A stretch of DNA of 23,107 nucleotides from a virus. The position numbers were made by a program, and so were the translations under genes. The notes under the pieces are model-generated. The model was not told where the DNA came from and did not search any database. It saw only the letters and a list, made by a program, of their open reading frames with translations. Below are positions 4,485 through 22,100 of this stretch, in pieces (position 1 is the stretch's first letter; each line of letters starts with the position of its first letter). Location of the stretch: UHGV virus genome UHGV-1970859, one strand, 5' to 3'.

Positions 4485-4791
4485 GGTTGTTGTCCTCGTT
4501 GTTCAGTCGTTGCAGCCTGCGCTGTTCCAGTAATTCAATGGCCCGTTTATCCGCGTTACAGGTTTCCAGTGCATCCAGAAGGCGGTCGCCCCATATACCG
4601 AGATTTCCCCATGTGGGAGTATCAGGGAAGGGGGGAGGCGTTACCGGTATGGTCAGCGTCTGCGGTATAAGCCGGACTGACGGCGCTGGCAGTGGCGCGT
4701 TCTGCGTGCCTGCGCAGCCTGTCAGTAAAACGAGCGTCAGGCAAAGCGTGGGCGCATTCATCTTTTGCAATATCGTTGCGTAGCTGTTCAC
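4471..4791 (-). CDS. Outer-membrane spanin lipoprotein (LysC/Rz1-like)
   Basis: Lipoprotein signal with lipobox LLTGC (MNAPTLCLTLVLLTGCAG), proline-rich mature part. Overlaps the 3' end of the i-spanin gene in another frame, as P2 lysB/lysC do. Start could be at 4791 or 4761. Confidence 0.6.
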   Translation of the reverse strand: MNSYATILQKMNAPTLCLTLVLLTGCAGTQNAPLPAPSVRLIPQTLTIPVTPPPFPDTPTWGNLGIWGDRLLDALETCNADKRAIELLEQRRLQRLNNEDNNHAEN

Positions 4792-5029
4792 GTCTTACCT
4801 CTCCGTCCTGATTGCGTTGCTGATTTTCCACGCGGAGTTGCGCCAGCACCTGCTGCATATCCTGTACCCCGGCGCTGATGATATTCAGGGTGTCGGCGGT
4901 ACTTTTCAGGGTGCTGGCCTGCGCTTCGTTTCTGGCGTTCTCCCGGCCAAGCGACCACGACAGACGCATGGATGTTCCCCATGCGGCAATCAGAAGGAAA
5001 GCGATGCCCAGCGTGGGCCAGAGTTTCAT
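4622..5029 (-). CDS. Inner-membrane spanin (LysB/Rz-like)
   Basis: Internal start MKLWPTLGIAFLLIAAWG gives an N-terminal TM helix followed by a charged coiled-coil-like segment. ATG is coupled (ATGA) to the endolysin stop. The track ORF extends upstream to 5173, which is likely a spurious extension. Confidence 0.6.
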   Translation of the reverse strand: MKLWPTLGIAFLLIAAWGTSMRLSWSLGRENARNEAQASTLKSTADTLNIISAGVQDMQQVLAQLRVENQQRNQDGEVRREQLRNDIAKDECAHALPDARFTDRLRRHAERATASAVSPAYTADADHTGNASPLP

Positions 5030-5418
5030 GCCGGATAGGCTCCGTGTGGTAACTGAAAATGCGGTCCGTCTTTCAGGGTCTTCCAGTCGCCGCCCCATTC
5101 CACCGGAATATTCAGTTCCCGGCTGGCCTGTCTGAATGCTGCTGCGATTTTTTCGTACAGCGGCCATTCCCATGACACCTGGCTGCCGATATAAGCCACA
5201 ACATCCACGGCATGTCCCGTAAGGTGGCGGCTGTTCATGGTCTGGCTCTTACCCGTGGCCACAAGTTGCTTCTGGCGGTAACGACTGCGCAACCCTTCGG
5301 TGATACCAAAATCCACTTCCGAAATTTCCAGTGCCCGTCGGGTCACTTTCACCAGATCAGGATTTACGCCCTGCAAATTCTTTTCGCTCCGGCTGCTGAA
5401 TTTAAATGTGTTGCTCAT
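5026..5418 (-). CDS. Endolysin, peptidase M15 family (zinc D-Ala-D-Ala / L-Ala-D-Glu peptidase-like)
   Basis: 130 aa with SRHLTGHAVDV and DGPHFQLPH motifs (the H/D/H zinc ligand pattern of the VanY/M15 fold). Sits between holin and spanins, with an ATGA overlap with the holin stop. Confidence 0.75.
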   Translation of the reverse strand: MSNTFKFSSRSEKNLQGVNPDLVKVTRRALEISEVDFGITEGLRSRYRQKQLVATGKSQTMNSRHLTGHAVDVVAYIGSQVSWEWPLYEKIAAAFRQASRELNIPVEWGGDWKTLKDGPHFQLPHGAYPA

Positions 5419-5738
5419 TCGTCCTTCTCCTTCACCCTGCGATTAAAGGCTGCAATAACCTTGTCGCGTGCTTTCTCTGCGCCCATAAAACCGATTGATG
5501 CGCCGATAAACGTCACGGCATCTTCAGGAAAACCGAAGAAGCGCAACGACCCGGCCACGGCCATGGCAAGAACGCCGCACGCCAGCGATCCCGTTACGGT
5601 CTGAACCAGTGTTCGTCCGTCATAAAGACTCATCAGCGCGGAAATGCTGACCGCCGCGCCTACTGCATACACCGTTGGCAGGTGGTCAAAGAGCCACGCA
5701 ATAACCTGCTCTGTGATCCCTGTTTGAATGGTGCTCAC
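5415..5738 (-). CDS. Holin (class I-like, three predicted TM segments)
   Basis: In-frame GTG at 5738 is preceded by GGGGGAG. The 107-aa product has three hydrophobic stretches and a charged C-terminal tail (NRRVKEKDE). Position between X and endolysin. The track ORF 5415..5957 upstream part overlaps X and is probably not translated. Confidence 0.6.
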   Translation of the reverse strand: MSTIQTGITEQVIAWLFDHLPTVYAVGAAVSISALMSLYDGRTLVQTVTGSLACGVLAMAVAGSLRFFGFPEDAVTFIGASIGFMGAEKARDKVIAAFNRRVKEKDE

Positions 5739-5740
5739 TG

Positions 5741-5941
5741 CTACTCCCCCCACAACTGAATCATTTCTCGTTTCTTCTTCTCCGGCTCCGGCATCTCCAC
5801 TTCCTGCCCGGCGTCCAGAAATACCTGCTGACAGAGTCCGGGGTTGGCATCCAGCACCTTTTCGGTGACGCCCTGCGTCGTGCCGTAGTACCGGAAACAG
5901 AGCGAATCCACGGTGTCGCCTTCCAGTGCCTTCACTTTCAT
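5741..5941 (-). CDS. X: Tail protein gpX
   Basis: Internal start MKVKALEGDTVDSLCFRYYG...LWGE resembles P2 gpX (MKTFALQGDTLDAICVRYYG...LWE), 66 aa. Confidence 0.85.
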   Translation of the reverse strand: MKVKALEGDTVDSLCFRYYGTTQGVTEKVLDANPGLCQQVFLDAGQEVEMPEPEKKKREMIQLWGE

Positions 5942-6435
5942 CAGCACAACTCCGCAAAGATTCGCGGGCGGCACAGAATGTCAGAGATGGCCCAGCTCAC
6001 ATCGCGCCACAAATCCGATGTCTGTATATCCAGTGCGTCCGCCCGGCGGTCGCCCTTGTCCGTTGTGTCTGCATCACGATAACGCTCCAGAATCAGGGCG
6101 CGCGTGGCGGTATAAACCGCATTGCGCCAGTGCCAGAGATTGACGCTTTCTCCGTTAATTACGGGTGCCGGAACATCGGCCAGCGTCTGATGGCCAGCCG
6201 CCTGCTGTTCCTGCTGCCACGCTTCCAGCTCGCGGGTAACGTGTGCCACGGCCCCGGTGGCGGTATGCAGCAGGCGGGAGGTGGTCACACGTCCCGGCAG
6301 TCGTACCGCCAGACGCAGTTCACGCAGCACAATATCCGGCCAGAATGCACCCGCTGAAATACGGGTATCACCATCATCGGTATCGGTGATGTCGTCCTCT
6401 GCGGGTCCGGGGTTGGTTCTGGCAACCATACTCAT
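5941..6435 (-). CDS. L: Capsid/head completion protein gpL
   Basis: ADVPAPVINGESV and LWRDVSWAISDI resemble P2 gpL. AGGAG Shine-Dalgarno 8 nt upstream of the ATG at 6435. The track start at 6444 is a GTG inside that Shine-Dalgarno. Confidence 0.85.
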   Translation of the reverse strand: MSMVARTNPGPAEDDITDTDDGDTRISAGAFWPDIVLRELRLAVRLPGRVTTSRLLHTATGAVAHVTRELEAWQQEQQAAGHQTLADVPAPVINGESVNLWHWRNAVYTATRALILERYRDADTTDKGDRRADALDIQTSDLWRDVSWAISDILCRPRIFAELC

Positions 6436-12783: not shown

Positions 12784-13185
12784 GTGAAAGACATCACATA
12801 TTGGAATGATAAAATTCAGAAACAAATTGATAGTTATCCTGAAGCCGTTCGAGAAAGGATAAATTTTGAGCTTGTTGCACTGCAGAGCGATTGTCCTCAT
12901 TCTTTCGACAGTTTCGATTTTCCAGTGGATGGTGATGATGCCTTGGGGGTTCCACCGGCTCAAAAAAAATCAATGCGGGAAACGATTGGTCGCTACGCAA
13001 TGCAATTAACCATCAAGAGTAGTGATTCTTATCGTATGATTTACGTTGCGAAATTTGCGGAGTCTGTTTACATACTTCATACATTTAAGAAAAAGACAAA
13101 TGGTGTGTCAAAAAAAGAATATGAGACAGCTGCCGCAAGATACAAACAATTAGTGGAGTATCGTCGTAAAAATGGCTTAAGATAG
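12784..13185 (+). CDS. Type II toxin, RelE/HigB superfamily (Gp49-like, DUF891-type)
   Basis: 133 aa, GTG start with GAGAGG upstream. C-terminal YRMIYVAKFAESVYILHTFKKKTNGVSKKEYETAAARYKQL is characteristic of Gp49-like toxins. Followed by an XRE-HTH gene (toxin-first order as in HigBA). AT-rich relative to flanking phage genes. Confidence 0.6.
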   Translation: MKDITYWNDKIQKQIDSYPEAVRERINFELVALQSDCPHSFDSFDFPVDGDDALGVPPAQKKSMRETIGRYAMQLTIKSSDSYRMIYVAKFAESVYILHTFKKKTNGVSKKEYETAAARYKQLVEYRRKNGLR

Positions 13186-13255
13186 CTTGCAGGTATCTCA
13201 AATCTGATATAACATAATCAATGTCAGCAACATCGCTGATTAAGGCTGGAGAGTT

Positions 13256-13573
13256 ATGGAATTCGTCGTAGTTAAAAACCCTTATGCGTCATCAAGTAGC
13301 TCTGTAAATGAAGCTAGTGATAAACACATCCGGGCCCAATTAATGGTTATTATCCGAAAAATGATTCAGGAGCGCGGTCTTACCCAGCGAGAAGCTGCTG
13401 AATTGCTGGAAACAACCCAACCAAGAGTAAGCGAAATCATTAATGGTAAGTTAGATAATCATACCATTGATCGACTGTTTATCATGCTAAACATCCTGGG
13501 GTGGGATTTTAAGTTTGGGTATTCCGGTGGGGTTGTTACTGCGACGGCAGAACATTCCTGTCAGGTTGCATAA
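13256..13573 (+). CDS. Antitoxin, HTH XRE family (HigA-like)
   Basis: 105 aa. LTQREAAELLETTQPRVSEIINGKLDNHTIDRLFIMLNILG is an HTH pattern typical of antitoxins paired with Gp49-like toxins. GGAG Shine-Dalgarno. Confidence 0.6.
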   Translation: MEFVVVKNPYASSSSSVNEASDKHIRAQLMVIIRKMIQERGLTQREAAELLETTQPRVSEIINGKLDNHTIDRLFIMLNILGWDFKFGYSGGVVTATAEHSCQVA

Positions 13574-13931: not shown

Positions 13932-14246
13932 TCATTCAGGAAAAAATTCCTGAATATTCTTTTTTATTTGACTTATATTCTGATTTTTGCAACCAACAGG
14001 CTCGCTGTTATGCCAGCCCCATATGTGATTGTTGGCAGGCATATTTTCCCCCTCTGACCATTCAGCCAGCCAGTAAGCAAAGGCAGGATCGTTTTTAATG
14101 AGTGCCAGTCCAGCCAGAAATGCCGCGCGTTGCGCGCGGCTGCGTTCGGAGGCTGGCAGGCTGTCGAGATAATTACACGCTTCCCGTTCACTCTTGACTG
14201 CAGCTGGCTTCAGATAGAAACTTATCCGTCTGGTTGGTGTCGTCAT
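13932..14246 (-). CDS. parR: ParR-like RHH centromere-binding adaptor
   Basis: Track ORF 13932..14381. Likely start is MTTPTRRISFYLKPAAV at 14246, with an AAGGAG Shine-Dalgarno inside the parM 3' end. N-terminal RRISFYLKP...YLDSLPASERSRAQRAAFLAGLALIKNDP resembles R1 ParR (RRTIAFKLNP...TLDSIPQGERSRLNRAALTAGLALYRQDP) as recalled from memory. Confidence 0.6.
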   Translation of the reverse strand: MTTPTRRISFYLKPAAVKSEREACNYLDSLPASERSRAQRAAFLAGLALIKNDPAFAYWLAEWSEGENMPANNHIWGWHNSEPVGCKNQNISQIKKNIQEFFPE

Positions 14247-14250
14247 TGGT

Positions 14251-15210
14251 TTACTCCTTGTCCATTGCGTACAGCCCATTAACCAGAGCAAACTGTGGCA
14301 CCCCGTCCGCGATGAAAGTCGCATTAACTCCGCAGGCTTCGCGGATAGCGGGGGCCACAATCTCCGCCCCGCCACCGACAACCATCACCCGCCCGTAACC
14401 CGAAAAACCCGCCAGCGCGCGGATCACGCGTTGTTTCAGTGTTTCTTCCTTTTCACGAATAACCGCCATCAGGCTGGCGTAATGCGCGTCATTGTGGATG
14501 TGCTGGCGCAGCCAGGCTTCATCATGGCGATGTTCGATAATGGTATTGGCGATGTGGTGACTGGTACGCATACCGTTAGTGGCCATCACCGACAGTACGG
14601 CATCGGCCATCAGGGAAACGCCTACGTGTGGATCGCAAAACACCTGGCTGATACCTACCAGTTGTCCCTGAACCTTTGCCACATCCAGCGTGGTTCCGCC
14701 TAAATCCACAATCAGCAGGGATTCAAACGGACTCATGTCAGCCAGTGCTTTAAAACCAGCCGGAATGGATTCAGGCATAACCCGTACGTTACGGATAGTG
14801 AATGCTTTTCCGTTCTGGTACGCCACCGGGCGCATGACGTTTGCTTTTTTGCGGTTGATGTTGGCCATGTCCGGCTGTGCGTTTGTGTCGAAATATTCGC
14901 TCAGTGGCAGGGTGACAACCACATCCACTTCCTGTGGTGTGATGCCTGATTTGACCAGCGCGTGATGAATGGCAATGACATTCACATCGCTGTACTGGTA
15001 TTGCGTGTCGGTCGTCTGGACAAAGCGATCGCTGACCGGATCAAAACCATAGCGCACGCCATCAAGCATGTAGTTTGCGGGCTGCGTGCCACCGAACGGC
15101 GCAGACCATTCCGACTTGAAGCTGTTCGGGCTGATGGCGTTGCGGCGTTCGCCGTTCTCAGTCCATGCCAGCTTGATGTTGGTGGAGCCGTCATCGATAC
15201 AAATTTTCAT
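14251..15210 (-). CDS. parM: ParM/StbA-family actin-like segregation ATPase
   Basis: 319 aa. MKICIDDGSTNIKLAW, ISPNSFKSEW, YSDVNVIAIHHAL, VMPESIPAG, LLIVDLGGTTLD, FSGYGRVMVVGGGAE and LVNGLYAM match the R1 ParM motifs (phosphate 1, adenosine and phosphate 2 elements of the actin fold), as recalled from memory. Confidence 0.85.
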   Translation of the reverse strand: MKICIDDGSTNIKLAWTENGERRNAISPNSFKSEWSAPFGGTQPANYMLDGVRYGFDPVSDRFVQTTDTQYQYSDVNVIAIHHALVKSGITPQEVDVVVTLPLSEYFDTNAQPDMANINRKKANVMRPVAYQNGKAFTIRNVRVMPESIPAGFKALADMSPFESLLIVDLGGTTLDVAKVQGQLVGISQVFCDPHVGVSLMADAVLSVMATNGMRTSHHIANTIIEHRHDEAWLRQHIHNDAHYASLMAVIREKEETLKQRVIRALAGFSGYGRVMVVGGGAEIVAPAIREACGVNATFIADGVPQFALVNGLYAMDKE

Positions 15211-15286: not shown

Positions 15287-18154
15287 TCATATATCGCGGC
15301 GCGTTTTTTGCTCATTTACGGGATTTGTGAATCCCGTTTCTGTCTGTTTTTTGTTTCCACTGGTCAGGCCACCCCGCAGCAGGTCTGCTTTGCGGCGGGC
15401 GCGTTCAGTGGTTTCACTGATTCTCTGTGCGTGCTCTGCGTCGCGGATGGCGCGCAGCATGTCAGAAAGCACGGTAACGGGTGTTTTCATGGTGTTCTGG
15501 TCTTGCTGAAGTGTGGATGCCAGGCGTGCGGCGGCTTCGGGGTCTGATGCCCCCAGCTGTTCCAGATAGCTGGCGACCGGGTTATGGCGGATCTCCGTGC
15601 TGCTTACGCCGTGGTTACGGCTCAGGCGCTGCCAGAGCTGCGTGATCCGGCTGTCCGGTCTGGTATCCGGTTTGCGTACAATTTCAAATCCCTGCGGTGC
15701 AATGATGCTGCCGTCAACGTACAGACTGCCGCCCCGTAACAGGTGCTGCATCTGTTGTTCACCGATATGCAGGCCGAGAGATTCAGCAGACTCCCGCCAT
15801 TCTTTAGCGAGTAATTCGTGGTTATCAGGCAAAGGCCGCTGCTGTTTGCGGCTCTGTGTCCAGCTCTGCATTTCATCACTGCTGTTTTTTGCCTGTTTGT
15901 CACGAAGCGAACGCATCAGCGCCCGGCGTTCGTGCCGTTTCAGTGAGCGCATCCATTCGTTCACTTCAACGCCGTCAGGGAGCTGCGGCCACGGTGCTGG
16001 CCGTTCTTCCGGCTGTTCTGTCCCGTTGTTGTCCGTTTCCTGTACACGGGGACAGTTATTGCCACGAGTCCAAGGGGCGGCAGGGCCGCCCTGAAGGTCA
16101 AAACCATTTTCGCGGGCGCTGTCTTCCGCTTCCGGTTTGCGTCTTACCAGCTTCCAGTTATCCGGATGCGTGCATACGCGGGAAGACTCCCCAATGAGCG
16201 GCGACCAGATCCCGTAAATCTGTACACTCTGCTCGCCGTAATCGTTCAGCTCATCTGCGAGGTCGTAGGCTGTGCGAATCAGGTAGTCCTTGCGCGGAAC
16301 AAGTACGCCACCCTGTTTTTCAATGTAGGTGGCAAAACATCCGGCATCAGCGGCAGCGAGTACCGCATCCATTGCGTCATCCTTCAGCCGTTGCGGGCCT
16401 TCCGGGTTGCGTGCCATCTGGCTGGCAAGGCGGCGGAGTTCACGCCACACCTGACGGGAGGGGATGCCAAAGAACTGGAACTGGCGGACCCGGTGAAGGC
16501 GCGCCCAGCCGATGGCACGCTCCACGCTCTCGGCCATTGATTTACCTGTTTCGTGGTCAACGCGTGGCTTGCCCGTTTTCGGGTCGATGCCATCCACGGC
16601 ACGGCTGTCCAGGTTTTTCCCGATGTAGGTGGCGATGTAGCTGGTCGGTGTGCCTTTTGAGCCGTCGACGTACTCTGCCTTAAAGCGTGGGGTAATATCA
16701 TCACCCAGCTCGTGACGATCTTCCTGAATGGCAATATCGCGGGTGTGGGACACAATGGTGTCGATTTCTTCCGGATGAGCAAAGACCATCATATGCCAGT
16801 GCACGGTGCCGTCATGGTGAGGCTCCACCGTGCGGATGCCATACCAGCGCAGGCCGTCGCGGTTCAGTTTCTTGCGGACTGCCGCAAAAAACGTGTTAAC
16901 CAGGTAATCGCTGGAGTCGCGCATGGTGGCCCCGTTCCATTTGGGATTCTGATGACCGTTCTCTGTTGTGGCGTGGTATTTTGACGGGCAGGTGACAGTC
17001 AGAAACACCGCTTTGTCGCCACGGGCTTCGGCCAGAAGTTCCAGTCCCTTCATGGTGGCCATCATTTCTGCCTTACGGTGAACCGGGTTACTTACTCCCG
17101 CGTAATACACTGTCTCGAGATCAATCGTGAACCCGTCTTCATTTTCCAGCATGAAACTTTTCAGGAAATCGCGTGTTTTCTCGCGCTGTGCGCGAAACTC
17201 GCTTAACGCGTCCTGGCTCAGATAAGGCGATGTTTTTCTGGAAACCAGACAGGCGGCGCGGAGTTGTTCTTCTCTCCACTCGCAACGTAACAGCCACAGT
17301 TTGCGTTTCCACCATTCCGCACAGGTCAGGCGAAGGATTGCACCCGGCAGCAGCTCTGTGTCCGGTTCGTTCCTCCGGTCTTTGTCTGTTGTCAGTACGT
17401 CATAATGCGGAGGCATGGCGTGCAGGTGTAACGCCATGCGGGCCAGCATCTGATACGCCTTCAGGGTTACATCCATGGTCAGCTCGCCATCGGTCGCGCC
17501 AAAGCCATCGCAGAGTTTTTCGAAGGTGCTGCTGAACATCGCCGCCGTCATGGTGGCCAGCGTCTGTATCTGGTGTTTGTTGAGCTGCGGCAGGTAAAGC
17601 AAATCGTCCAGGCGCTCGCGTCCGGCAAGGGAGCGATAACCCGGTGTCAGCCAGCGTCCGTCAGTGCGATCCAGACGTTCGAATATTTTGCGCAGGGTTC
17701 CGCGTGCATAGCGTTCCGCCTGCCAGTTCTTTTTGCCTTTCTGACGATCGGCTTCCTGCTTCTTGCGCAGAAAAGAGAGGTGGCGGCTCAGAGGTTCACG
17801 CAGATAAACGGGAAGCACCTTCAGTGTGGCAAAAGCACGGGCCACCGGGTCTTGTTCTGTTGCCTGACGCTTGCTGATGATGCTTTGTGTCAGCTTTTCA
17901 CGCTGTCCGGCTTCCTCAAGGGATGCCATGAGTTTTTTACCCACGGTGGATTGTGCGAAAAAGGCTTCCTCCTTCGCTTCCTGTTCTTCCAGGGCCTTTT
18001 TGTCTGCTTCAAGGTAGTAACGGATGGCGCGTTGCAGGTCGGTTTCAGTTTCCTGCCTGCGCTCCGTAAATCTGGCCGGATCAATGGCTGGCCGTGGTTC
18101 ATTCCAGCTCCATGCAAACTCACTCATGGCTGGTATCCCGTCACGTGCTGCCAC
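15287..18154 (-). CDS. A: Replication initiation protein gpA (HUH rolling-circle endonuclease)
   Basis: 955-aa ORF. [21 protein letters not shown] (HUH motif) and [13 protein letters not shown] (paired catalytic tyrosines) resemble P2 gpA ([35 protein letters not shown]). Track start is GTG at 18154; an ATG at 18127 is coupled (ATGA) to the upstream gene stop and may be the true start. Confidence 0.9.
   Translation of the reverse strand: [955 protein letters not shown]
15313..15351. repeat. Repeat unit 2 containing the palindrome ACGGGATT-TGTG-AATCCCGT (about 15318-15337)
   Basis: Near-identical to unit 1 including flanks (TTTACGGGATT...AATCCCGTTT.TG.CTGTTTT), 73 bp away. Lies within the last codons of A. 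Confidence 0.5.
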
Positions 18155-18513
18155 TCCAGCGAGAAGAGGGTGGAAAGGCGGTTAAATTCAGCGGTGTATT
18201 CACTCAGCGAGGCACACCCGCCAGCAGTGCGATGCGCCAGCATTGCCGCAAATATGGAGGCCGGGGAGTCGTAATACGCCAGCAGTGATTCGCCGTGTGG
18301 TGTCAGGCAGTGCAACGCCAGCCCATGTGGTGTGAAGTCCACGCGGTAGCAGTCGTCTACTGTGAAATAAAGGGTGTCTGCATTCTCCGGTTTTGTGGTG
18401 CGTGCTCTGTTGTCACGACCACGGATGTAGAGATCAAATAATCCCTGAAGAACGGGAGCCAGACGGGTGTCCTGTGTGCGCACCCATCTTGTGAAGTCAT
18501 GAGCGTCAATCAT
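18124..18513 (-). CDS. Hypothetical early-operon protein (129 aa)
   Basis: ORF translationally coupled to A. No recognisable motif. Occupies the position of the small P2 orf80-83/B genes. Confidence 0.45.
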   Translation of the reverse strand: MIDAHDFTRWVRTQDTRLAPVLQGLFDLYIRGRDNRARTTKPENADTLYFTVDDCYRVDFTPHGLALHCLTPHGESLLAYYDSPASIFAAMLAHRTAGGCASLSEYTAEFNRLSTLFSLEWQHVTGYQP

Positions 18514-18621
18514 GCTGCAATTCTCTCTACTAAGGATGTGCGAAGGCTTCCTGCCAAAAAACTCAGAAGCGGTCGGTTACAGGAATTGGCGTTCTACGAG
18601 TAGTTATTGCTGGCTTGAGGT

Positions 18622-18840
18622 TCATTTCTGTTTAATTCCGTGCATGCTGTAGAAGAAATCAAAAGTGTTATCTATGCGTATCATGAGCTCACGCTGCATC
18701 GCTTCTGGTGTTTCTGGTTCACCTGGTGAGCCAACGCCCGCGAAGAAATCACCGATCTCGCTTTGAATAAGTACCTTTAGCGTTGCTGAGGAATTCATGC
18801 GTGTGCGGTGATGTCTGCGAGTGATTCTTCTACTGCTCAT
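18622..18840 (-). CDS. Hypothetical small early protein (72 aa)
   Basis: ORF with Arg-rich N-terminus, start overlapping the stop of the upstream ORF (ATGA). Same strand and operon as A. Confidence 0.4.
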   Translation of the reverse strand: MSSRRITRRHHRTRMNSSATLKVLIQSEIGDFFAGVGSPGEPETPEAMQRELMIRIDNTFDFFYSMHGIKQK

Positions 18841-19040
18841 TTGCGTGGATCCTGTACCTGTCGGATAAGATTCACCCGCGCCACATTAGTGGCGCAGAAG
18901 TAAGTGCCGTCAGTGAGATAGATGTGGTGTGCATCCTTTTCTGAGCGGTGTTTGTCGATTGTGGTAATCAGGCGTTCGTCGACTTCGTATTCACGTCCTC
19001 TGGAGGTGAAACGAACGACAGGAAAATGCTTAATTGCCAT
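18837..19040 (-). CDS. Hypothetical small early protein (67 aa)
   Basis: ORF in the early operon; no recognisable motif. Confidence 0.4.
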   Translation of the reverse strand: MAIKHFPVVRFTSRGREYEVDERLITTIDKHRSEKDAHHIYLTDGTYFCATNVARVNLIRQVQDPRK

Positions 19041-19125
19041 TACGCCTCCTTGGGTGTGCGAATACCTCTGCGAATGCAGATTGTGTTCACATTTTCTTAT
19101 TTAAGATGGGGTTTTATTTACGCTG

Positions 19126-19239
19126 TTATTCGCCAGTGAAAAAGCGTTCAATCTTTTTTACTGAATTAATAATTCGCATAATACCAATTGCACAGACCAC
19201 CGAAATAATCAGAACAATCCATGATATAAATATACTCAT
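19126..19239 (-). CDS. Candidate 37-aa hydrophobic peptide (single TM)
   Basis: Own translation: MSIFISWIVLIISVVCAIGIMRIINSVKKIERFFTGE. Its ATG overlaps the stop of the 80-aa upstream gene (ATGA coupling). Below the ORF-track size threshold. The track ORF 19166..19351 in another frame is probably spurious. Confidence 0.3.
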   Translation of the reverse strand: MSIFISWIVLIISVVCAIGIMRIINSVKKIERFFTGE

Positions 19240-19478
19240 GCGATATTTCCCAGTTTGTACGGCTCAATATGCTCCCCGCATTCTGCGGCGCAGATAAGCT
19301 CAGAAAGTTCGTTAAGTGCATCCAGATCGTCAGCGTAAAAAGCCACGTCATACAGACTCCGGATAGCCCTGGTCAATGAGTCACGGGCTGCACGTTCTGA
19401 ATGAGCGCCTGATGCGCTTAAGCGAAAATAAAAACGCTCAAGTGCTTTGTTGATGAGAGTTTTATATTCTTTATCCAT
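19236..19478 (-). CDS. Hypothetical small early protein (80 aa)
   Basis: ORF in the early operon, predicted helical; no recognisable motif. Confidence 0.45.
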   Translation of the reverse strand: MDKEYKTLINKALERFYFRLSASGAHSERAARDSLTRAIRSLYDVAFYADDLDALNELSELICAAECGEHIEPYKLGNIA

Positions 19479-19489
19479 CGCAACACCCT

Positions 19490-19768
19490 TTAATCTGCTT
19501 TCTGAATTTCAGCTTCTGAATCCATGCAGATAATTTCGATATAGGGTTCATCGCCATTAACCTGACGAGATTTTTCGGCTTCGCTAATTATTTCGCGAAT
19601 GGTCTGGTACGGAAGCTCTACAGTCAGGCGTGTACCGTTCAGATAAACGTAGGTAGCTGCGTTTTTTTCAGATGGAACTACTCCGTCAATAGCTGATGCG
19701 CGTAATAACAGTTCACCGCGAAAATCAATAAAGCGGATAAATACACCTTGTGCATGGTCTTTAGTCAT
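19490..19768 (-). CDS. Hypothetical early protein (about 92 aa)
   Basis: Track ORF 19490..19813. The internal ATG at 19768 avoids overlap with the upstream gene. No recognisable motif. Confidence 0.4.
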   Translation of the reverse strand: MTKDHAQGVFIRFIDFRGELLLRASAIDGVVPSEKNAATYVYLNGTRLTVELPYQTIREIISEAEKSRQVNGDEPYIEIICMDSEAEIQKAD

Positions 19769-19778
19769 AAAGCACCTG

Positions 19779-20129
19779 TTATAAATCAGCCTGTTTAATA
19801 AAACTTTGCCCACGAAGCAGACGATCGACTGTGCGCAGTGCTTCGTACAATGTGAAATCCTGCCCGAACTGATTATCGCCGCTGCTTAATGCAAAAATGC
19901 GGTTTCCGGTAAACGGATTGCGTGGGCATCTGTGAACCACGATTCCAGCTTTCTCAATCAGCCAGGTGTGTTCGCCGATTTGTGTTACTGCGTGCCCATC
20001 TGGTGTTGCGTGCGTCTCGTTCAGGTTATAGCGACTGTTACTACGTGATGCACTGGTAGCGACGTGGTGTACATGGCGTTCTACGCCATTACGAAATTTG
20101 AAGTATGGATTATTAGCATTTTTTTTCAT
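19779..20129 (-). CDS. Hypothetical early protein (116 aa)
   Basis: ORF directly downstream of the cox-like gene; His/Cys-containing, no recognisable motif. Confidence 0.45.
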   Translation of the reverse strand: MKKNANNPYFKFRNGVERHVHHVATSASRSNSRYNLNETHATPDGHAVTQIGEHTWLIEKAGIVVHRCPRNPFTGNRIFALSSGDNQFGQDFTLYEALRTVDRLLRGQSFIKQADL

Positions 20130-20150
20130 GATGATGCTCTGTTCATTGTT

Positions 20151-20354
20151 TTAGCTGTTAGCCAAAGCGTCTTTTAACATCGCCACAAGGTTTACTTCAG
20201 GCTTTTCCATTTTGGCGCGTTTGGGGCGGATAATAATTCGACCGTCAGCCAACATCTTTTTGCATGTATTAAGAGGGATACCTGTTATCTCTGCATATTT
20301 CTGCAGGGATACATAGGGGGCATTCACATGGATATTGATGGTTATACCTGACAT
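20151..20354 (-). CDS. cox: Cox-like HTH DNA-binding protein (putative excisionase / switch regulator)
   Basis: 67 aa. APYVSLQKYAEITGIPLNTCKKMLADGRI resembles the P2 Cox HTH (IPYQEFAKLIGKSTGAVRRMIDKGKLPVI). GAGG Shine-Dalgarno. Located at the head of the early operon. Confidence 0.55.
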   Translation of the reverse strand: MSGITINIHVNAPYVSLQKYAEITGIPLNTCKKMLADGRIIIRPKRAKMEKPEVNLVAMLKDALANS

Positions 20355-20370
20355 CCCACTAGCCTCGTGA

Positions 20371-20577
20371 TCAGGAAGATTTGTTTTGTTCTTTCTGGGT
20401 TAGCTCTAGGCCGCGAAGGAAGATCATGCGCGCCATGTTAGAGGATGAGCGTTGTTCTTTAGCTGCCATTTCATCAATGACGGCTCGCTCCTCGAGTGAC
20501 AGCCGAAGTGCCAGTCTTGGACCTGTGGCGGTGTTACGCGGAATGCGTGATCTGGTATCGTGAAGAACTTGTTTCAT
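20371..20577 (-). CDS. Ribbon-helix-helix (Arc/CopG-like) DNA-binding protein, first gene of the early operon
   Basis: 68 aa. PRLALRLSLEERAVIDEMAAKEQRSSSNMARMIFLRGLE fits the RHH beta-strand/helix-A pattern. No obvious Shine-Dalgarno, so possibly leaderless or weakly translated. Confidence 0.45.
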   Translation of the reverse strand: MKQVLHDTRSRIPRNTATGPRLALRLSLEERAVIDEMAAKEQRSSSNMARMIFLRGLELTQKEQNKSS

Positions 20578-20652
20578 AGTGGTATATTGTGATCATCTAA
20601 TAGCTCGTGAAATCATTTTGGTATCAAAAAAGATACCTGTCAAGGTTTTTGT
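20578..20652. promoter_or_regulatory. Lysis-lysogeny switch region (divergent genes, expected face-to-face promoters and operators)
   Basis: 75-bp gap between the early operon and the repressor gene. TGGTAT(C) repeats at about 20553, 20580 and 20619, and an inverted pair GGTATC-AAAAAA-GATACC at about 20620-20637. TATATT -10-like hexamer. Confidence 0.4.
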
Positions 20653-21057
20653 ATGAAAAATGATATTGGTCAGCGGTTGCGTGAGGAAAGGGAAAGATTG
20701 GGACTTAGTCAAGTTGCTATGAGCGACATTGGTGGAGTCAAAAAGCTAACTCAGCTTAGATATGAGAAAGGAGATAGCTTTCCTGATGCTGCGTATTTGG
20801 CAGCGCTGTCTCGTTTTGGCCTTGATGTTCAGTATGTTGTGTTGGGAATTCACTCACCTGAAACTTATAACGATGATGAGCAGGAGCTGATTACTCGCTT
20901 TCGAGCAGCTTCGTTAGATGTGAAAAACGCCGTGATCGGGGCTTTAAAAGGTGCGATCAGTGAAAAGGAAACTCAGCCATCAGGACGTGAGTTAAATATT
21001 TCTGGTGGTAATAACCGTATCGCTGGTCGTGACTATAACGAAACTAAGGGTAGGTGA
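20653..21057 (+). CDS. Immunity repressor (C-like), XRE-family HTH
   Basis: 134 aa. N-terminal GQRLREERERLGLSQVAMSDIGGVKKLTQLRYEKGDSFPDAAYLAALSRFGLDV is a classic XRE HTH. Divergent from the early operon and on the same strand as int, as for P2 C / 186 cI. Confidence 0.7.
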   Translation: MKNDIGQRLREERERLGLSQVAMSDIGGVKKLTQLRYEKGDSFPDAAYLAALSRFGLDVQYVVLGIHSPETYNDDEQELITRFRAASLDVKNAVIGALKGAISEKETQPSGRELNISGGNNRIAGRDYNETKGR

Positions 21058-21072: not shown

Positions 21073-21723
21073 ATGGCCGTCAACTCAAACGGTTCAAACA
21101 ATCGCGTTGCTGGACGTGATTTTCACGAAAAGAATATTCAGATAGCGCGATATGATGGTTCTCATACCGTCAATATCGCAATCCCTTCGAATAATGATGA
21201 TGACGATCGCCCTTTGCTTAAGGCTCAGCGTAAGGAGCTAAATAGCTTGGTTGCTGCTATTGCAGAAGCTAGCAATACTGAAGCGTTTATTATTTGGCAA
21301 AAAGTACATGCGGAGATTGGTGTAGCTGGTATTGATGATATGACAGTAAATCAATATAAAACAGCGGAGAGTTTTCTGCATGCAATGCTTGAGCGATGTA
21401 AAGATCATGATGCCTGTAAGACTCTTGTAAGTTTATTACTACGTAACAGTGAAGACTGTGGACTTCGACAAAAACTTCTGCGGTATTGCCATATCAATTT
21501 CGGTACAGGACGTTTAAACGATCTTACTCGTTCTCAGTTACAGTCTGCATTGTCGTGGTTAGAGCAACAATCGGTATCAAGCCATACAGAGAATTCGACC
21601 TTACCAGAAGTCCGACTTCGTGCTTCAGAATTAATCCGACTTTATCCAAAAGAAATAATATTCTTTATCTGCGTAGGGGTTTTGGTAGGCGGTGCCATTT
21701 CTAGGGTGTTTTTTAATTTGTAA
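21073..21723 (+). CDS. Hypothetical tail-anchored membrane protein (216 aa) in the lysogenic operon
   Basis: GGGAGGTG Shine-Dalgarno. Low-complexity N-terminus (NNDDDD), helical central region, C-terminal TM segment IIFFICVGVLVGGAISRVFF. Its N-terminus repeats a motif from the repressor C-terminus. Confidence 0.5.
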   Translation: MAVNSNGSNNRVAGRDFHEKNIQIARYDGSHTVNIAIPSNNDDDDRPLLKAQRKELNSLVAAIAEASNTEAFIIWQKVHAEIGVAGIDDMTVNQYKTAESFLHAMLERCKDHDACKTLVSLLLRNSEDCGLRQKLLRYCHINFGTGRLNDLTRSQLQSALSWLEQQSVSSHTENSTLPEVRLRASELIRLYPKEIIFFICVGVLVGGAISRVFFNL

Positions 21724-21752
21724 TCTTACTTGAGCTAAATTGAGGTAATGAT

Positions 21753-22100
21753 ATGAAAGTAAAAAAGGTTCAACTATTAGTTACTTTTTTATCTATGTTT
21801 TCTTTTTCCGCCGTCGCAATGCCTTTTAAAAATATTGAACGTGAGAGTTTCAATGGGGTATGGCCATTTAATACTGATGAGGTTCAATTACAGTGTCTTG
21901 ATGGTAATCCTTATGTGATGAATTTTGACGATAATAAGTTATATGCGCTTACAGGTTTGGCTCGAATAAAAGGTAAAACATTTGGTGCGTTACCGTTAGA
22001 TAACAATAATCCATTTTGGCTAGATAATGATGCCGCCCCAGGGTTAAAAAAGAGTCTGGGGGATGTCACTAAGGCTGCATTTGATTTATGTGATAAGTAA
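21753..22100 (+). CDS. Secreted YebY-like (DUF2511) protein
   Basis: 115 aa with signal peptide (MKVKKVQLLVTFLSMFSFSAVA). NGVWPFNTDEVQLQC...PYVMNF and C-terminal AAFDLC resemble E. coli YebY (AWPFTREEVMLTC...LYVINP...LC) as recalled from memory. AT-rich. Confidence 0.55.
   Translation: MKVKKVQLLVTFLSMFSFSAVAMPFKNIERESFNGVWPFNTDEVQLQCLDGNPYVMNFDDNKLYALTGLARIKGKTFGALPLDNNNPFWLDNDAAPGLKKSLGDVTKAAFDLCDK

What the first reader, a model, noticed from the sequence alone, without database searches (positions are those of the whole stretch)
19126..19239. Unannotated 37-aa hydrophobic peptide translationally coupled within the early operon
An ATG overlapping the stop of the 80-aa gene opens a frame encoding a single TM-like helix (MSIFISWIVLIISVVCAIGIMRIINSVKKIERFFTGE). 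Small membrane peptides in early phage operons can act as host-takeover or cell-division-inhibiting factors.
Basis: seen in the sequence. Interest (0 to 1): 0.35.

Follow-up and report, generated by a model that had tools for sequence, protein, structure and literature searches.

The report
Conserved small membrane peptide of P2-like prophage
The 37-codon frame is a real, strongly conserved gene for a one-helix membrane peptide in the early operon of a P88-type (P2-family) E. coli prophage; public records already list it as a hypothetical or membrane protein, and nobody has tested what it does.

Summary
The ORF is there exactly as described: minus strand, 19126..19239, with its ATG overlapping the TGA of the 80-aa DUF4754 gene. 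An ORF this short means nothing alone, but comparison shows it is a gene. In 110 related loci the ATGA overlap is kept in 110 and the frame is intact (37 or 41 aa) in 104. Pooled pN/pS is 0.28 in this frame only, and the other five frames are mostly broken by stops. The peptide is more conserved (54-70%) than DUF4754 (31-42%) or the replication protein gpA (about 40%). It is predicted to be one continuous helix. Residues 3-21 form a transmembrane segment, followed by a basic amphipathic tail with a conserved K-x-I-E-x-x-F-T-G motif. Variable positions fall on a single helical stripe.

It is not unannotated. P88 gp07 is called 'membrane protein', PGAP calls it 'hypothetical protein', and this allele matches 862 of 5426 complete E. 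coli genomes. It belongs to no Pfam, PHROG, NCBIfam or PADLOC family, and I found no paper on it. Function is untested. My best inference is a single-pass inner-membrane small protein, made by translational coupling early in lytic growth, that packs against a conserved, probably host, membrane partner. The cell-division or host-takeover idea is possible but has no direct support.

The parts
19126..19239 (-). The 37-aa small ORF: predicted TM helix at residues 3-21, then a basic amphipathic tail at residues 22-37; stop TAA at 19126-19128.
   Evidence: Searches give the sequence. One search gives pN/pS 0.28. One search shows 104/110 loci intact. Searches give TM energy, helical periodicity of variability and the AF2 helix.
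19236..19239 (-). ATGA overlap: the start codon of the peptide shares bases with the TGA stop of DUF4754. This is the proposed termination-reinitiation (translational coupling) site.
   Evidence: The overlap is present in 110/110 related loci, including lineages where DUF4754 is only 26-42% identical.
19248..19251 (-). Weak purine-rich Shine-Dalgarno-like element (GGGA) 8 nt upstream of the ATG, inside the 3' end of DUF4754. Distant relatives have stronger versions (GAGGAG, AGGAGG, GAGGTGG).
   Evidence: One search lists the 20 nt upstream of the start in all loci; one search shows the junctions.
19236..19478 (-). Upstream coupled gene: an 80-aa DUF4754 protein, acidic (net charge -4), predicted three-helix bundle.
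   Evidence: Pfam PF15946 at E=7.5e-54; phrog_2549; AF2 pLDDT 88.6 with three helices; net charge.
19154..19159 (-). A6 homopolymer in codons 27-29. A7 in two relatives gives a truncated 30-aa form.
   Evidence: annotated as a 'frameshifted' pseudogene in NZ_CP058874.1.
19139..19143 (-). T5 homopolymer in codons 33-34. T4 in three relatives gives 45-aa forms with an altered tail.
19067..19080 (-). Conserved 5-bp stem / 4-nt loop hairpin (TCTGC-ATTC-GCAGA) in the 85-nt gap after the peptide gene. It travels with the peptide gene; its role is uncertain.
   Evidence: Found in 102/110 loci. 98.9% of cells are paired and two stem positions show compensatory changes. No U tract follows, and the fold of the whole gap is not significant (z = -1.0).
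20615..20643 (-). Candidate early promoter (TTGACA-17-CAAAAT) ahead of the leftward operon: Arc-like, Cox-like, DUF4761, a 92-aa protein, DUF4754, then the peptide.
   Evidence: It is the only promoter-like site in 18500-20800. This is a consensus match only, not shown to function.

Best explanation
This is a genuine protein-coding gene, the sixth cistron of the early (lytic) operon of a P88-type (Xuanwuvirus-like, Peduoviridae) prophage of E. coli. Ribosomes ending DUF4754 at its TGA restart on the overlapping ATG, so the peptide is made together with DUF4754 whenever the early operon is on. The 37-aa product is one continuous alpha-helix. Residues 3-21 span the inner membrane, probably N-out/C-in, with the K/R-rich amphipathic tail (residues 22-37) lying at the cytoplasmic face. 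Most of the helix surface is conserved: S6, W7, L10, S/A13, A17, G19, I20, I24, K28, I30, E31, F34, T35. Only one stripe varies. So the peptide most likely works by helix-helix packing against a conserved partner, not as a non-specific detergent-like toxin. Peptide alleles are exchanged between very different DUF4754 alleles, and the peptide is more conserved than the phage proteins around it except DUF4761. I therefore favour a conserved host inner-membrane protein as the partner, which the peptide inhibits or modulates early in lytic growth. Shown here: the ORF, the coupling geometry, purifying selection, helicity and hydrophobicity, conserved synteny. Inferred: expression, membrane insertion and topology, existence and identity of a partner, and the physiological outcome.
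For: The gene is real. pN/pS is 0.28 only in this frame. 104/110 loci are intact and 110/110 keep the ATGA overlap. Divergent 41-aa relatives sit at the same position after DUF4754 in other P2-like prophages.

Constraint is strong. Peptide identity is 54-70%, against 31-42% for DUF4754 and 38-42% for the gpA N-terminus in the same loci.

Membrane helix. The TM energy sum is -3.3 to -4.0 kcal/mol in all lineages, the tail has net charge +1 to +3, and the tail has a high hydrophobic moment. AF2 gives a single helix over residues 2-35 at pLDDT 92.7.

Specific packing. Variability has a 105-degree (3.43-residue) periodicity across residues 3-36; only 5 of 2000 shuffles reach this within the helical range.

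Partner probably not DUF4754-specific. L092 pairs a window-type DUF4754 (83% identical) with the P0018-type peptide (68% identical).

Operon context. The window is a P2-family prophage. Only one promoter-like site lies upstream. The lysis cassette is about 14 kb away, in the late genes.
Against: There are no expression, localisation or phenotype data, and no paper mentions the peptide or DUF4754. Topology rests only on the positive-inside rule. Invariant coupling to DUF4754 (110/110) fits a complex with DUF4754 equally well. The SD-like element in this lineage is weak (GGGA), so output could be low. Frameshifted alleles exist, including in the closest genome, so loss is tolerated at least in a resident prophage. 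The family is tiny: 10 representatives at 50% identity among 1.84 billion proteins. The evolutionary sample is therefore narrow and mostly Escherichia.
Confidence: 0.55

Rival explanations
1. The peptide is the membrane-anchoring or regulatory subunit of a two-protein complex with DUF4754. Coupled translation delivers both in fixed proportion, and the basic tail docks the acidic three-helix bundle to the inner membrane.
For: The two genes are adjacent with an ATGA overlap in 110/110 loci. All 12 phage records with a full-length DUF4754 also carry the peptide. DUF4754 has net charge -4 and the tail +2. DUF4754 is a small three-helix bundle with no enzymatic fold.
Against: The two evolve at very different rates (26-42% against 54-70% identity). 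A mosaic locus, L092, joins divergent alleles of the two. I could not run a complex prediction.
Confidence: 0.25
2. The peptide is a membrane-damaging toxin (type-I-toxin-like or holin-like) that depolarises the host and shuts it down, acting by self-oligomerisation and not on a specific target.
For: Its size, single hydrophobic helix, charged C-terminus and small-residue positions (S6, S/A13, A17, G19) resemble Hok/Ldr/TisB-type toxins and small holins (the resemblance is from general knowledge).
Against: No antisense promoter or RNA is detectable: there is no promoter-like site on the opposite strand and no Rfam match. The gene is embedded in an operon and not a separate, tightly gated unit. 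The holin, endolysin and spanin genes lie in the late region at 4622-5957. Early depolarisation would harm the phage's own replication. The tail motif is conserved in sequence, not just in charge.
Confidence: 0.12
3. Only the act of translating the frame matters, for example to keep ribosomes on the mRNA and so prevent Rho polarity, or to control the downstream hairpin. The peptide itself would be a by-product.
For: A conserved hairpin follows the ORF in 102/110 loci. Phages 186 and P2 have annotated terminators at a comparable place in their early operons.
Against: Amino-acid-level purifying selection (pN/pS 0.28), helical periodicity of conservation and a conserved tail motif across saturated synonymous divergence are not expected for a frame whose sequence is irrelevant.
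Confidence: 0.05
4. The ORF is a chance open frame and not a gene.
For: Short ORFs are abundant here (65 of at least 25 aa in 4.5 kb). No curated protein family matches.
Against: All the comparative evidence above.
Confidence: 0.03

Closest known systems
Escherichia phage P88 SF19_gp07 (YP_009113050.1, 'membrane protein') and its PGAP/UniProt equivalents (e.g. WP_000021655.1; 'Prophage membrane protein' A0A1L4QK33)
   Same: Same gene: 37 aa, same position after DUF4754 with a 4-nt overlap, at most a few substitutions.
   Different: None in kind. These are database entries with no functional study behind them that I could find.
Phage 186 Fil (cell-division inhibitor) and Dhr (host-replication inhibitor), the non-essential early-operon genes of a P2-family phage
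   Same: Small accessory genes lying between the switch genes and the replication genes of the early operon. In 186 they are followed by an intra-operon terminator (tR1), in the place where this locus has a conserved hairpin.
   Different: No sequence similarity. Fil (75 aa) and Dhr (66 aa) are hydrophilic and have no TM helix. P2 Orf78 is also hydrophilic. In the phage collection the peptide and DUF4754 are confined to Xuanwuvirus-type phages.
Bacterial small single-TM regulators of larger membrane proteins (AcrZ, MgrB, MgtS, SidA, Blr and similar; recalled from general knowledge)
   Same: Under 50 aa, one TM helix, short charged cytoplasmic tail. Conservation is on a helix face, as expected for a packing interface.
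   Different: No homology to any of them; Pfam gives only a sub-threshold YiaAB match at E=0.1. This peptide is phage-encoded and early-lytic. No partner is known.
Type I toxin peptides (Hok, Ldr, TisB, Ibs, ShoB, DinQ; recalled from general knowledge)
   Same: Size and hydrophobic helix.
   Different: No antisense RNA gene or promoter and no Rfam hit. The peptide is translationally coupled inside a polycistronic operon, not a stand-alone locus.

Membership tests
P88 gp07-type small membrane peptide (uncurated family; 10 representatives at 50% identity) | Sequence pattern M-[SN]-[IV]-[FL]-x-S-W...A-[IV]-G...[RK]-[IV]-I...K-x-I-E-x-x-F-[TS], length 37-41 aa | tested here: met
   Identical or near-identical to cluster members, with 54-78% identity to the divergent representatives.
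P88 gp07-type small membrane peptide (uncurated family; 10 representatives at 50% identity) | Position immediately after DUF4754 with an ATGA overlap, in the early operon of a P2-family prophage (integrase, repressor, Cox upstream; gpA downstream) | tested here: met
Type I toxin-antitoxin toxins | Small hydrophobic peptide with one TM helix | tested here: met
Type I toxin-antitoxin toxins | Antisense or adjacent sRNA antitoxin with its own promoter; stand-alone transcription unit | tested here: not met
   No promoter-like site on the + strand near 19000-19300. No Rfam match in 18000-21000. The gene is coupled inside an operon. The scans are simple, so a non-canonical RNA is not excluded.
Type I toxin-antitoxin toxins | Toxicity on overexpression | not testable with these tools
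   Needs an experiment.
Holins / pinholins | Encoded in the lysis cassette next to endolysin and spanin, with late expression | tested here: not met
   Holin/antiholin, endolysin and Rz-like spanin map to 4622-5957, among the late genes. The peptide is in the early operon about 14 kb away.
Phage 186 Fil cell-division inhibitor | Sequence homology to Fil | tested here: not met
   Fil is 75 aa, basic and hydrophilic. The representative search with the peptide returned only P88-type peptides.
Phage 186 Fil cell-division inhibitor | Blocks cell division when expressed | not testable with these tools
   Needs an experiment.
Curated protein families (Pfam, PHROGs, NCBIfam, PADLOC) | Score above the family threshold | tested here: not met
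   The best matches are YiaAB at 13.3 bits (cut-off 26.6) and TIGR01218 at 12.9 bits (cut-off 35). No PHROG reached E<=0.01 and there was no PADLOC hit.

The most novel reading that the evidence does not exclude
DUF4761, DUF4754 and the peptide form the conserved core of the P88-type early operon. The peptide, more conserved than the replication initiator, may be a phage-made small-protein inhibitor of one specific E. coli inner-membrane machine, for example a divisome component, a transporter or a DNA-entry route used for superinfection exclusion. That would add a new phage-encoded small-membrane-protein effector with a defined host target, one carried by roughly one in six or more sequenced E. 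coli strains.
Probability: 0.25. Interest if true: 0.6.

Novelty: new member of a known kind. Interest (0 to 1): 0.3.

Why it matters
Small membrane proteins are under-studied, and a growing number turn out to regulate larger membrane machines. This one is very common. This allele matches 862 of 5426 complete E. coli genomes, and the surrounding 701-bp region matches 1365, including O157:H7 and O26 strains. It is under clear purifying selection and is produced only when a P2-family prophage goes lytic. If it targets a host membrane protein, it would be a ready-made probe or inhibitor of that protein. It would also help explain the conserved but wholly uncharacterised DUF4761/DUF4754 block of these prophages. 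If it has no phenotype, it is one more conserved phage ORF of unknown function.

Tried and rejected
I used the HMMER representative search instead.

2. Family libraries (Pfam, PHROGs, NCBIfam, PADLOC) gave nothing above threshold for the peptide or its divergent relatives.

3. I looked for function hints through the partner gene. The DUF4754 profile against PDB sequences hit only designed helical repeats. The AF2 model (pLDDT 88.6) against PDB with Foldseek gave no match at E<=0.001. The wider homolog search found only relatives at 71% identity or above. So DUF4754 is a generic three-helix bundle and is uninformative.

I could not submit a peptide+DUF4754 complex.

5. The genome-contig scan with a single protein returned only 2 loci. 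The IMG/VR scans were more useful.

6. Literature searches for DUF4754, Xuanwuvirus, P2-like early-operon small membrane proteins, the peptide's N-terminal strings and CP-933T found nothing about this gene.

7. I considered homology to 186 Fil/Dhr or P2 Orf78 and rejected it from their sequences.

8. I considered conservation caused by an overlapping ORF in another frame or strand (the 61-aa minus-strand and 87-aa plus-strand ORFs). I rejected it because those frames are interrupted in most relatives and show no excess of synonymous change.

9. Rfam search of 18000-21000 found no known RNA.

Full report
**1. What is in the sequence**

On the minus strand, 19126..19239 is a 37-codon ORF encoding MSIFISWIVLIISVVCAIGIMRIINSVKKIERFFTGE. 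Its ATG (19239-19237) overlaps the TGA (19238-19236) of the 80-aa gene at 19236..19478, giving ATGA. That gene is Pfam DUF4754 (E=7.5e-54) and phrog_2549. A weak purine-rich element (GGGA, 19251-19248) lies 8 nt upstream of the ATG. An 85-nt gap separates the ORF from the next gene (67 aa, 18837..19040), which has a strong AAGGAGG site.

**2. Context**

The window is a P2-family prophage of E. coli, closest to the P88-type phages (genus Xuanwuvirus, Peduoviridae).
- A repressor gene lies on the plus strand at 20653..21057.
- The early operon runs leftward on the minus strand in this order:
  - Arc-like protein (20371..20577)
  - Cox-like protein (20151..20354)
  - DUF4761 (19779..20129)
  - a 92-aa protein (19490..19768)
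  - DUF4754
  - the peptide
  - proteins of 67, 72 and 129 aa
  - the replication endonuclease gpA (15287..18154)
- The only sigma-70-like site in 18500-20800 is TTGACA-17-CAAAAT at 20643-20615 on the minus strand, ahead of the operon. No promoter-like site lies on the opposite strand near the peptide.
- The holin, endolysin and spanin genes are in the late region at 4622-5957.

**3. Is it a gene?**

A 37-codon ORF is unremarkable here: 65 ORFs of at least 25 aa overlap 4.5 kb. The comparative evidence is decisive.

*Distribution.*
- The exact peptide is in the protein collection on at least 1000 contigs, in a 118-member cluster at 90% identity.
- A full HMMER scan of 1.84 billion representatives found only 10 representatives. 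They include 41-aa relatives at 54-68% identity: P0018, P0019 and P0021.
- Each of these sits directly after an 80-aa DUF4754 gene with the same 4-nt overlap, in other P2-like prophages flanked by integrase, repressor, Cox, DUF4761 and gpA.
- IMG/VR scans added 94 more loci.

*Frame integrity.* Across 110 loci the TGA/ATG overlap is present in 110, and the frame is intact (37 or 41 aa) in 104.

*Selection.*
- In Nei-Gojobori comparisons, pooled pN/pS is 0.28.
- Against the distant lineages, synonymous sites are saturated (pS about 0.8) while pN is about 0.25.
- The same alignment read in the other five frames gives pN equal to or above pS, or only mildly below it.
- Those frames carry stops in 31-50 of 50 distinct sequences.

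*Relative conservation.* The peptide is more conserved than most of its neighbours. Against L086, L090, L091 and L101 it is 54-70% identical. DUF4754 is 31-42%, the gpA N-terminus 38-42%, and only DUF4761 (67-75%) is higher.

*The exceptions.* Six loci carry frameshift variants.
- A7 in place of the A6 run at 19154-19159 gives a 30-aa form. This occurs in the closest E. coli genome, where PGAP labels the gene a frameshifted pseudogene.
- T4 in place of the T5 run at 19139-19143 gives 45-aa forms.
- L094 carries a 59-aa form, a frameshifted version of the 41-aa allele seen in L096; I did not map the shift site.
- The 45-aa frameshift forms looked up in the protein collection (including one from A5 at the A-run) sit on 1-15 contigs, against about 1000 for intact forms. 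They could be real mutations or homopolymer sequencing errors.

**4. Physical nature**

- Residues 3-21 give a summed Hessa insertion energy of -3.4 kcal/mol, and -3.3 to -4.0 in the other lineages.
- No charge precedes the helix. The tail (residues 22-37) has net charge +2, and +1 to +3 elsewhere; the 41-aa forms add a KRRK-type end.
- The tail has a large hydrophobic moment.
- AlphaFold2 on the single sequence gives one uninterrupted helix over residues 2-35 at pLDDT 92.7.
- Among 10 representatives filtered at 85% identity:
  - Invariant positions are M1, F4, L10, G19, I20, I24, I30, E31 and F34.
  - Variable positions are 5, 8, 12, 15, 16, 25-27, 29, 32, 33 and 36.
- Variability has a spectral peak at 105 degrees (3.43 residues per turn) over residues 3-36. 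That peak is reached by 48 of 2000 shuffles at any angle and by 5 of 2000 within 95-110 degrees.

So one narrow stripe of the helix is free to vary and the rest is constrained, through both the membrane span and the tail. By the positive-inside rule (established knowledge, not tested here), the C-terminus should be cytoplasmic.

**5. How it probably works**

*Shown.* A conserved coding frame, invariant overlap with DUF4754, a hydrophobic helix, face-specific conservation, and early-operon position.

*Inferred.* The peptide is made by termination-reinitiation together with DUF4754 when the early promoter fires. It inserts N-out/C-in in the inner membrane. It acts by packing its conserved surface against a partner.

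Two observations lean towards a conserved host partner and away from DUF4754.
- The peptide evolves much more slowly than DUF4754.
- Locus L092 joins a window-type DUF4754 (83% identical to the window) to the P0018-type peptide (68% identical). That peptide is identical to the one in L091, whose DUF4754 is only 40% identical to the window's. Alleles of the two genes are therefore interchangeable.

The family is confined to Escherichia, Shigella, Salmonella and Citrobacter prophages, which fits a host-specific target. I cannot say which target, and the cell-division idea is one of several.

My confidence by level:
- real gene for a membrane helix: about 0.9
- acts through a specific partner and not as a non-specific toxin: about 0.6
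- that partner is a host membrane protein: about 0.4

**6. Rivals**

- *Complex with DUF4754.* This is favoured by the 110/110 adjacency and by opposite charges. I could not test it because no complex prediction was available.
- *Type-I-toxin-like or holin-like membrane damage.* This fits the size, but it lacks an antisense RNA or promoter, the genomic setting is wrong, and it does not explain sequence-specific conservation of the tail.
- *Translation-only role linked to the downstream hairpin.* This is contradicted by amino-acid-level selection.
- *Chance ORF.* Excluded.

**7. Comparison with what is known**

The gene is already in public annotation.
- P88 SF19_gp07 is called 'membrane protein'.
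- PGAP lists a 'hypothetical protein' under the match in all 40 records sampled evenly from the 862 complete E. coli genomes that match this allele. I checked two of them directly.
- UniProt calls it 'Prophage membrane protein'.

It is in no curated family, and I found no paper on it or on DUF4754. The classical P2-family phages lack it. The accessory early genes of phage 186 (fil, dhr) and P2 (orf78) are hydrophilic and unrelated. In the phage collection the peptide and DUF4754 occur only in Xuanwuvirus-type records, and all 12 records with a full-length DUF4754 also carry the peptide. In kind it resembles bacterial single-TM small-protein regulators and phage early accessory proteins. That is a resemblance, not membership.

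**8. Verdict**

It is a new, uncharacterised member of a known kind (phage-encoded small membrane proteins). Interest is modest at 0.3. Nothing here would surprise a specialist, but prevalence, strong constraint and a clean genetic handle (a silent start knockout at 19239) make it a reasonable experimental target.

Noticed in passing
window 19067-19080 (minus strand), in the gap between the peptide gene and the 67-aa gene: A conserved 5-bp stem / 4-nt loop hairpin (TCTGC-ATTC-GCAGA, followed by GG). It is present in 102/110 related loci even where the downstream gene differs. Two stem positions show compensatory changes (C-G to U-A) and 98.9% of cells are paired. No U tract follows. Phages 186 (tR1) and P2 have annotated terminators at a comparable spot in their early operons. 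It could be a processing site, an attenuator or a protein-binding palindrome.
   Followed up: partly
L101-L108, about 12 nt after the 41-aa peptide gene (e.g. L101 1859-1954): In one lineage the hairpin is absent, and a second small hydrophobic ORF (31 aa in L101-L105, L107 and L108, MKNVKAILTIATVWLIFQVCALIWLALKIWG in L101; L106 has a divergent longer version) follows the peptide gene. After it comes a terminator-like hairpin with a T run. It has no PHROG match.
   Followed up: partly
window 19154-19159 (A6) and 19139-19143 (T5), inside the peptide gene: Five of the six frameshift alleles seen (30-aa and 45-aa forms) arise at these two homopolymer runs; the sixth (L094, 59 aa) I did not map. 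One of them is in the 99.7%-identical E. coli STLEFF_47 prophage, which PGAP marks as frameshifted. They may be real mutations or homopolymer sequencing errors.
   Followed up: partly
window 13932-15210 (minus strand): This integrating P2-family prophage carries a plasmid-type actin-like partition pair. ParM/StbA is 319 aa (PF06406 E=7e-82) and the StbB/ParR-like protein is about 149 aa (PF10784 E=2e-25; PHROG 'partition protein'). The pair lies just downstream of gpA. That is unusual cargo for a chromosomally integrated phage.
   Followed up: partly
window 12784-13573 (plus strand): A Gp49/HigB-like protein (PF05973, E=3e-13) is followed by an HTH_37/HigA-like protein (E=8e-19). This is probably a toxin-antitoxin pair in the cargo region between the portal gene and the partition genes.
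   Followed up: partly
window 20371-20577 (minus strand) versus about 20426-20563 (plus strand): PHROGs supports a 68-aa Arc-like repressor on the minus strand as the first early gene (E=1e-28), and phage 520873 is annotated that way. PGAP in E. coli genomes instead annotates a 45-aa hypothetical protein on the opposite strand at the same place. This is probably a wrong-strand call in PGAP.
   Followed up: no
window 18124-18513 (minus strand): PGAP names the 129-aa early protein 'inositol monophosphatase' in NZ_CP058874.1. It has no Pfam match and only an unknown-function PHROG (phrog_3237). The name looks like a mis-annotation.
   Followed up: no
L004 (NZ_JBQPOM010000071.1, 'Vagococcus sp. 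WN89Y', 226-kb contig): A genome labelled as Vagococcus, a Gram-positive genus, carries a DUF4754 gene 98% identical to the window's, together with an intact peptide-family ORF. This suggests contamination or mislabelling of that assembly.
   Followed up: no
window 21073-22100 (plus strand): Two genes follow the repressor in the lysogenic direction: a 216-aa protein (phrog_5825, hydrophobic C-terminus, no Pfam match) and a DUF2511 protein. The integrase comes after them. Both are candidates for lysogenic-conversion or exclusion genes.
   Followed up: no
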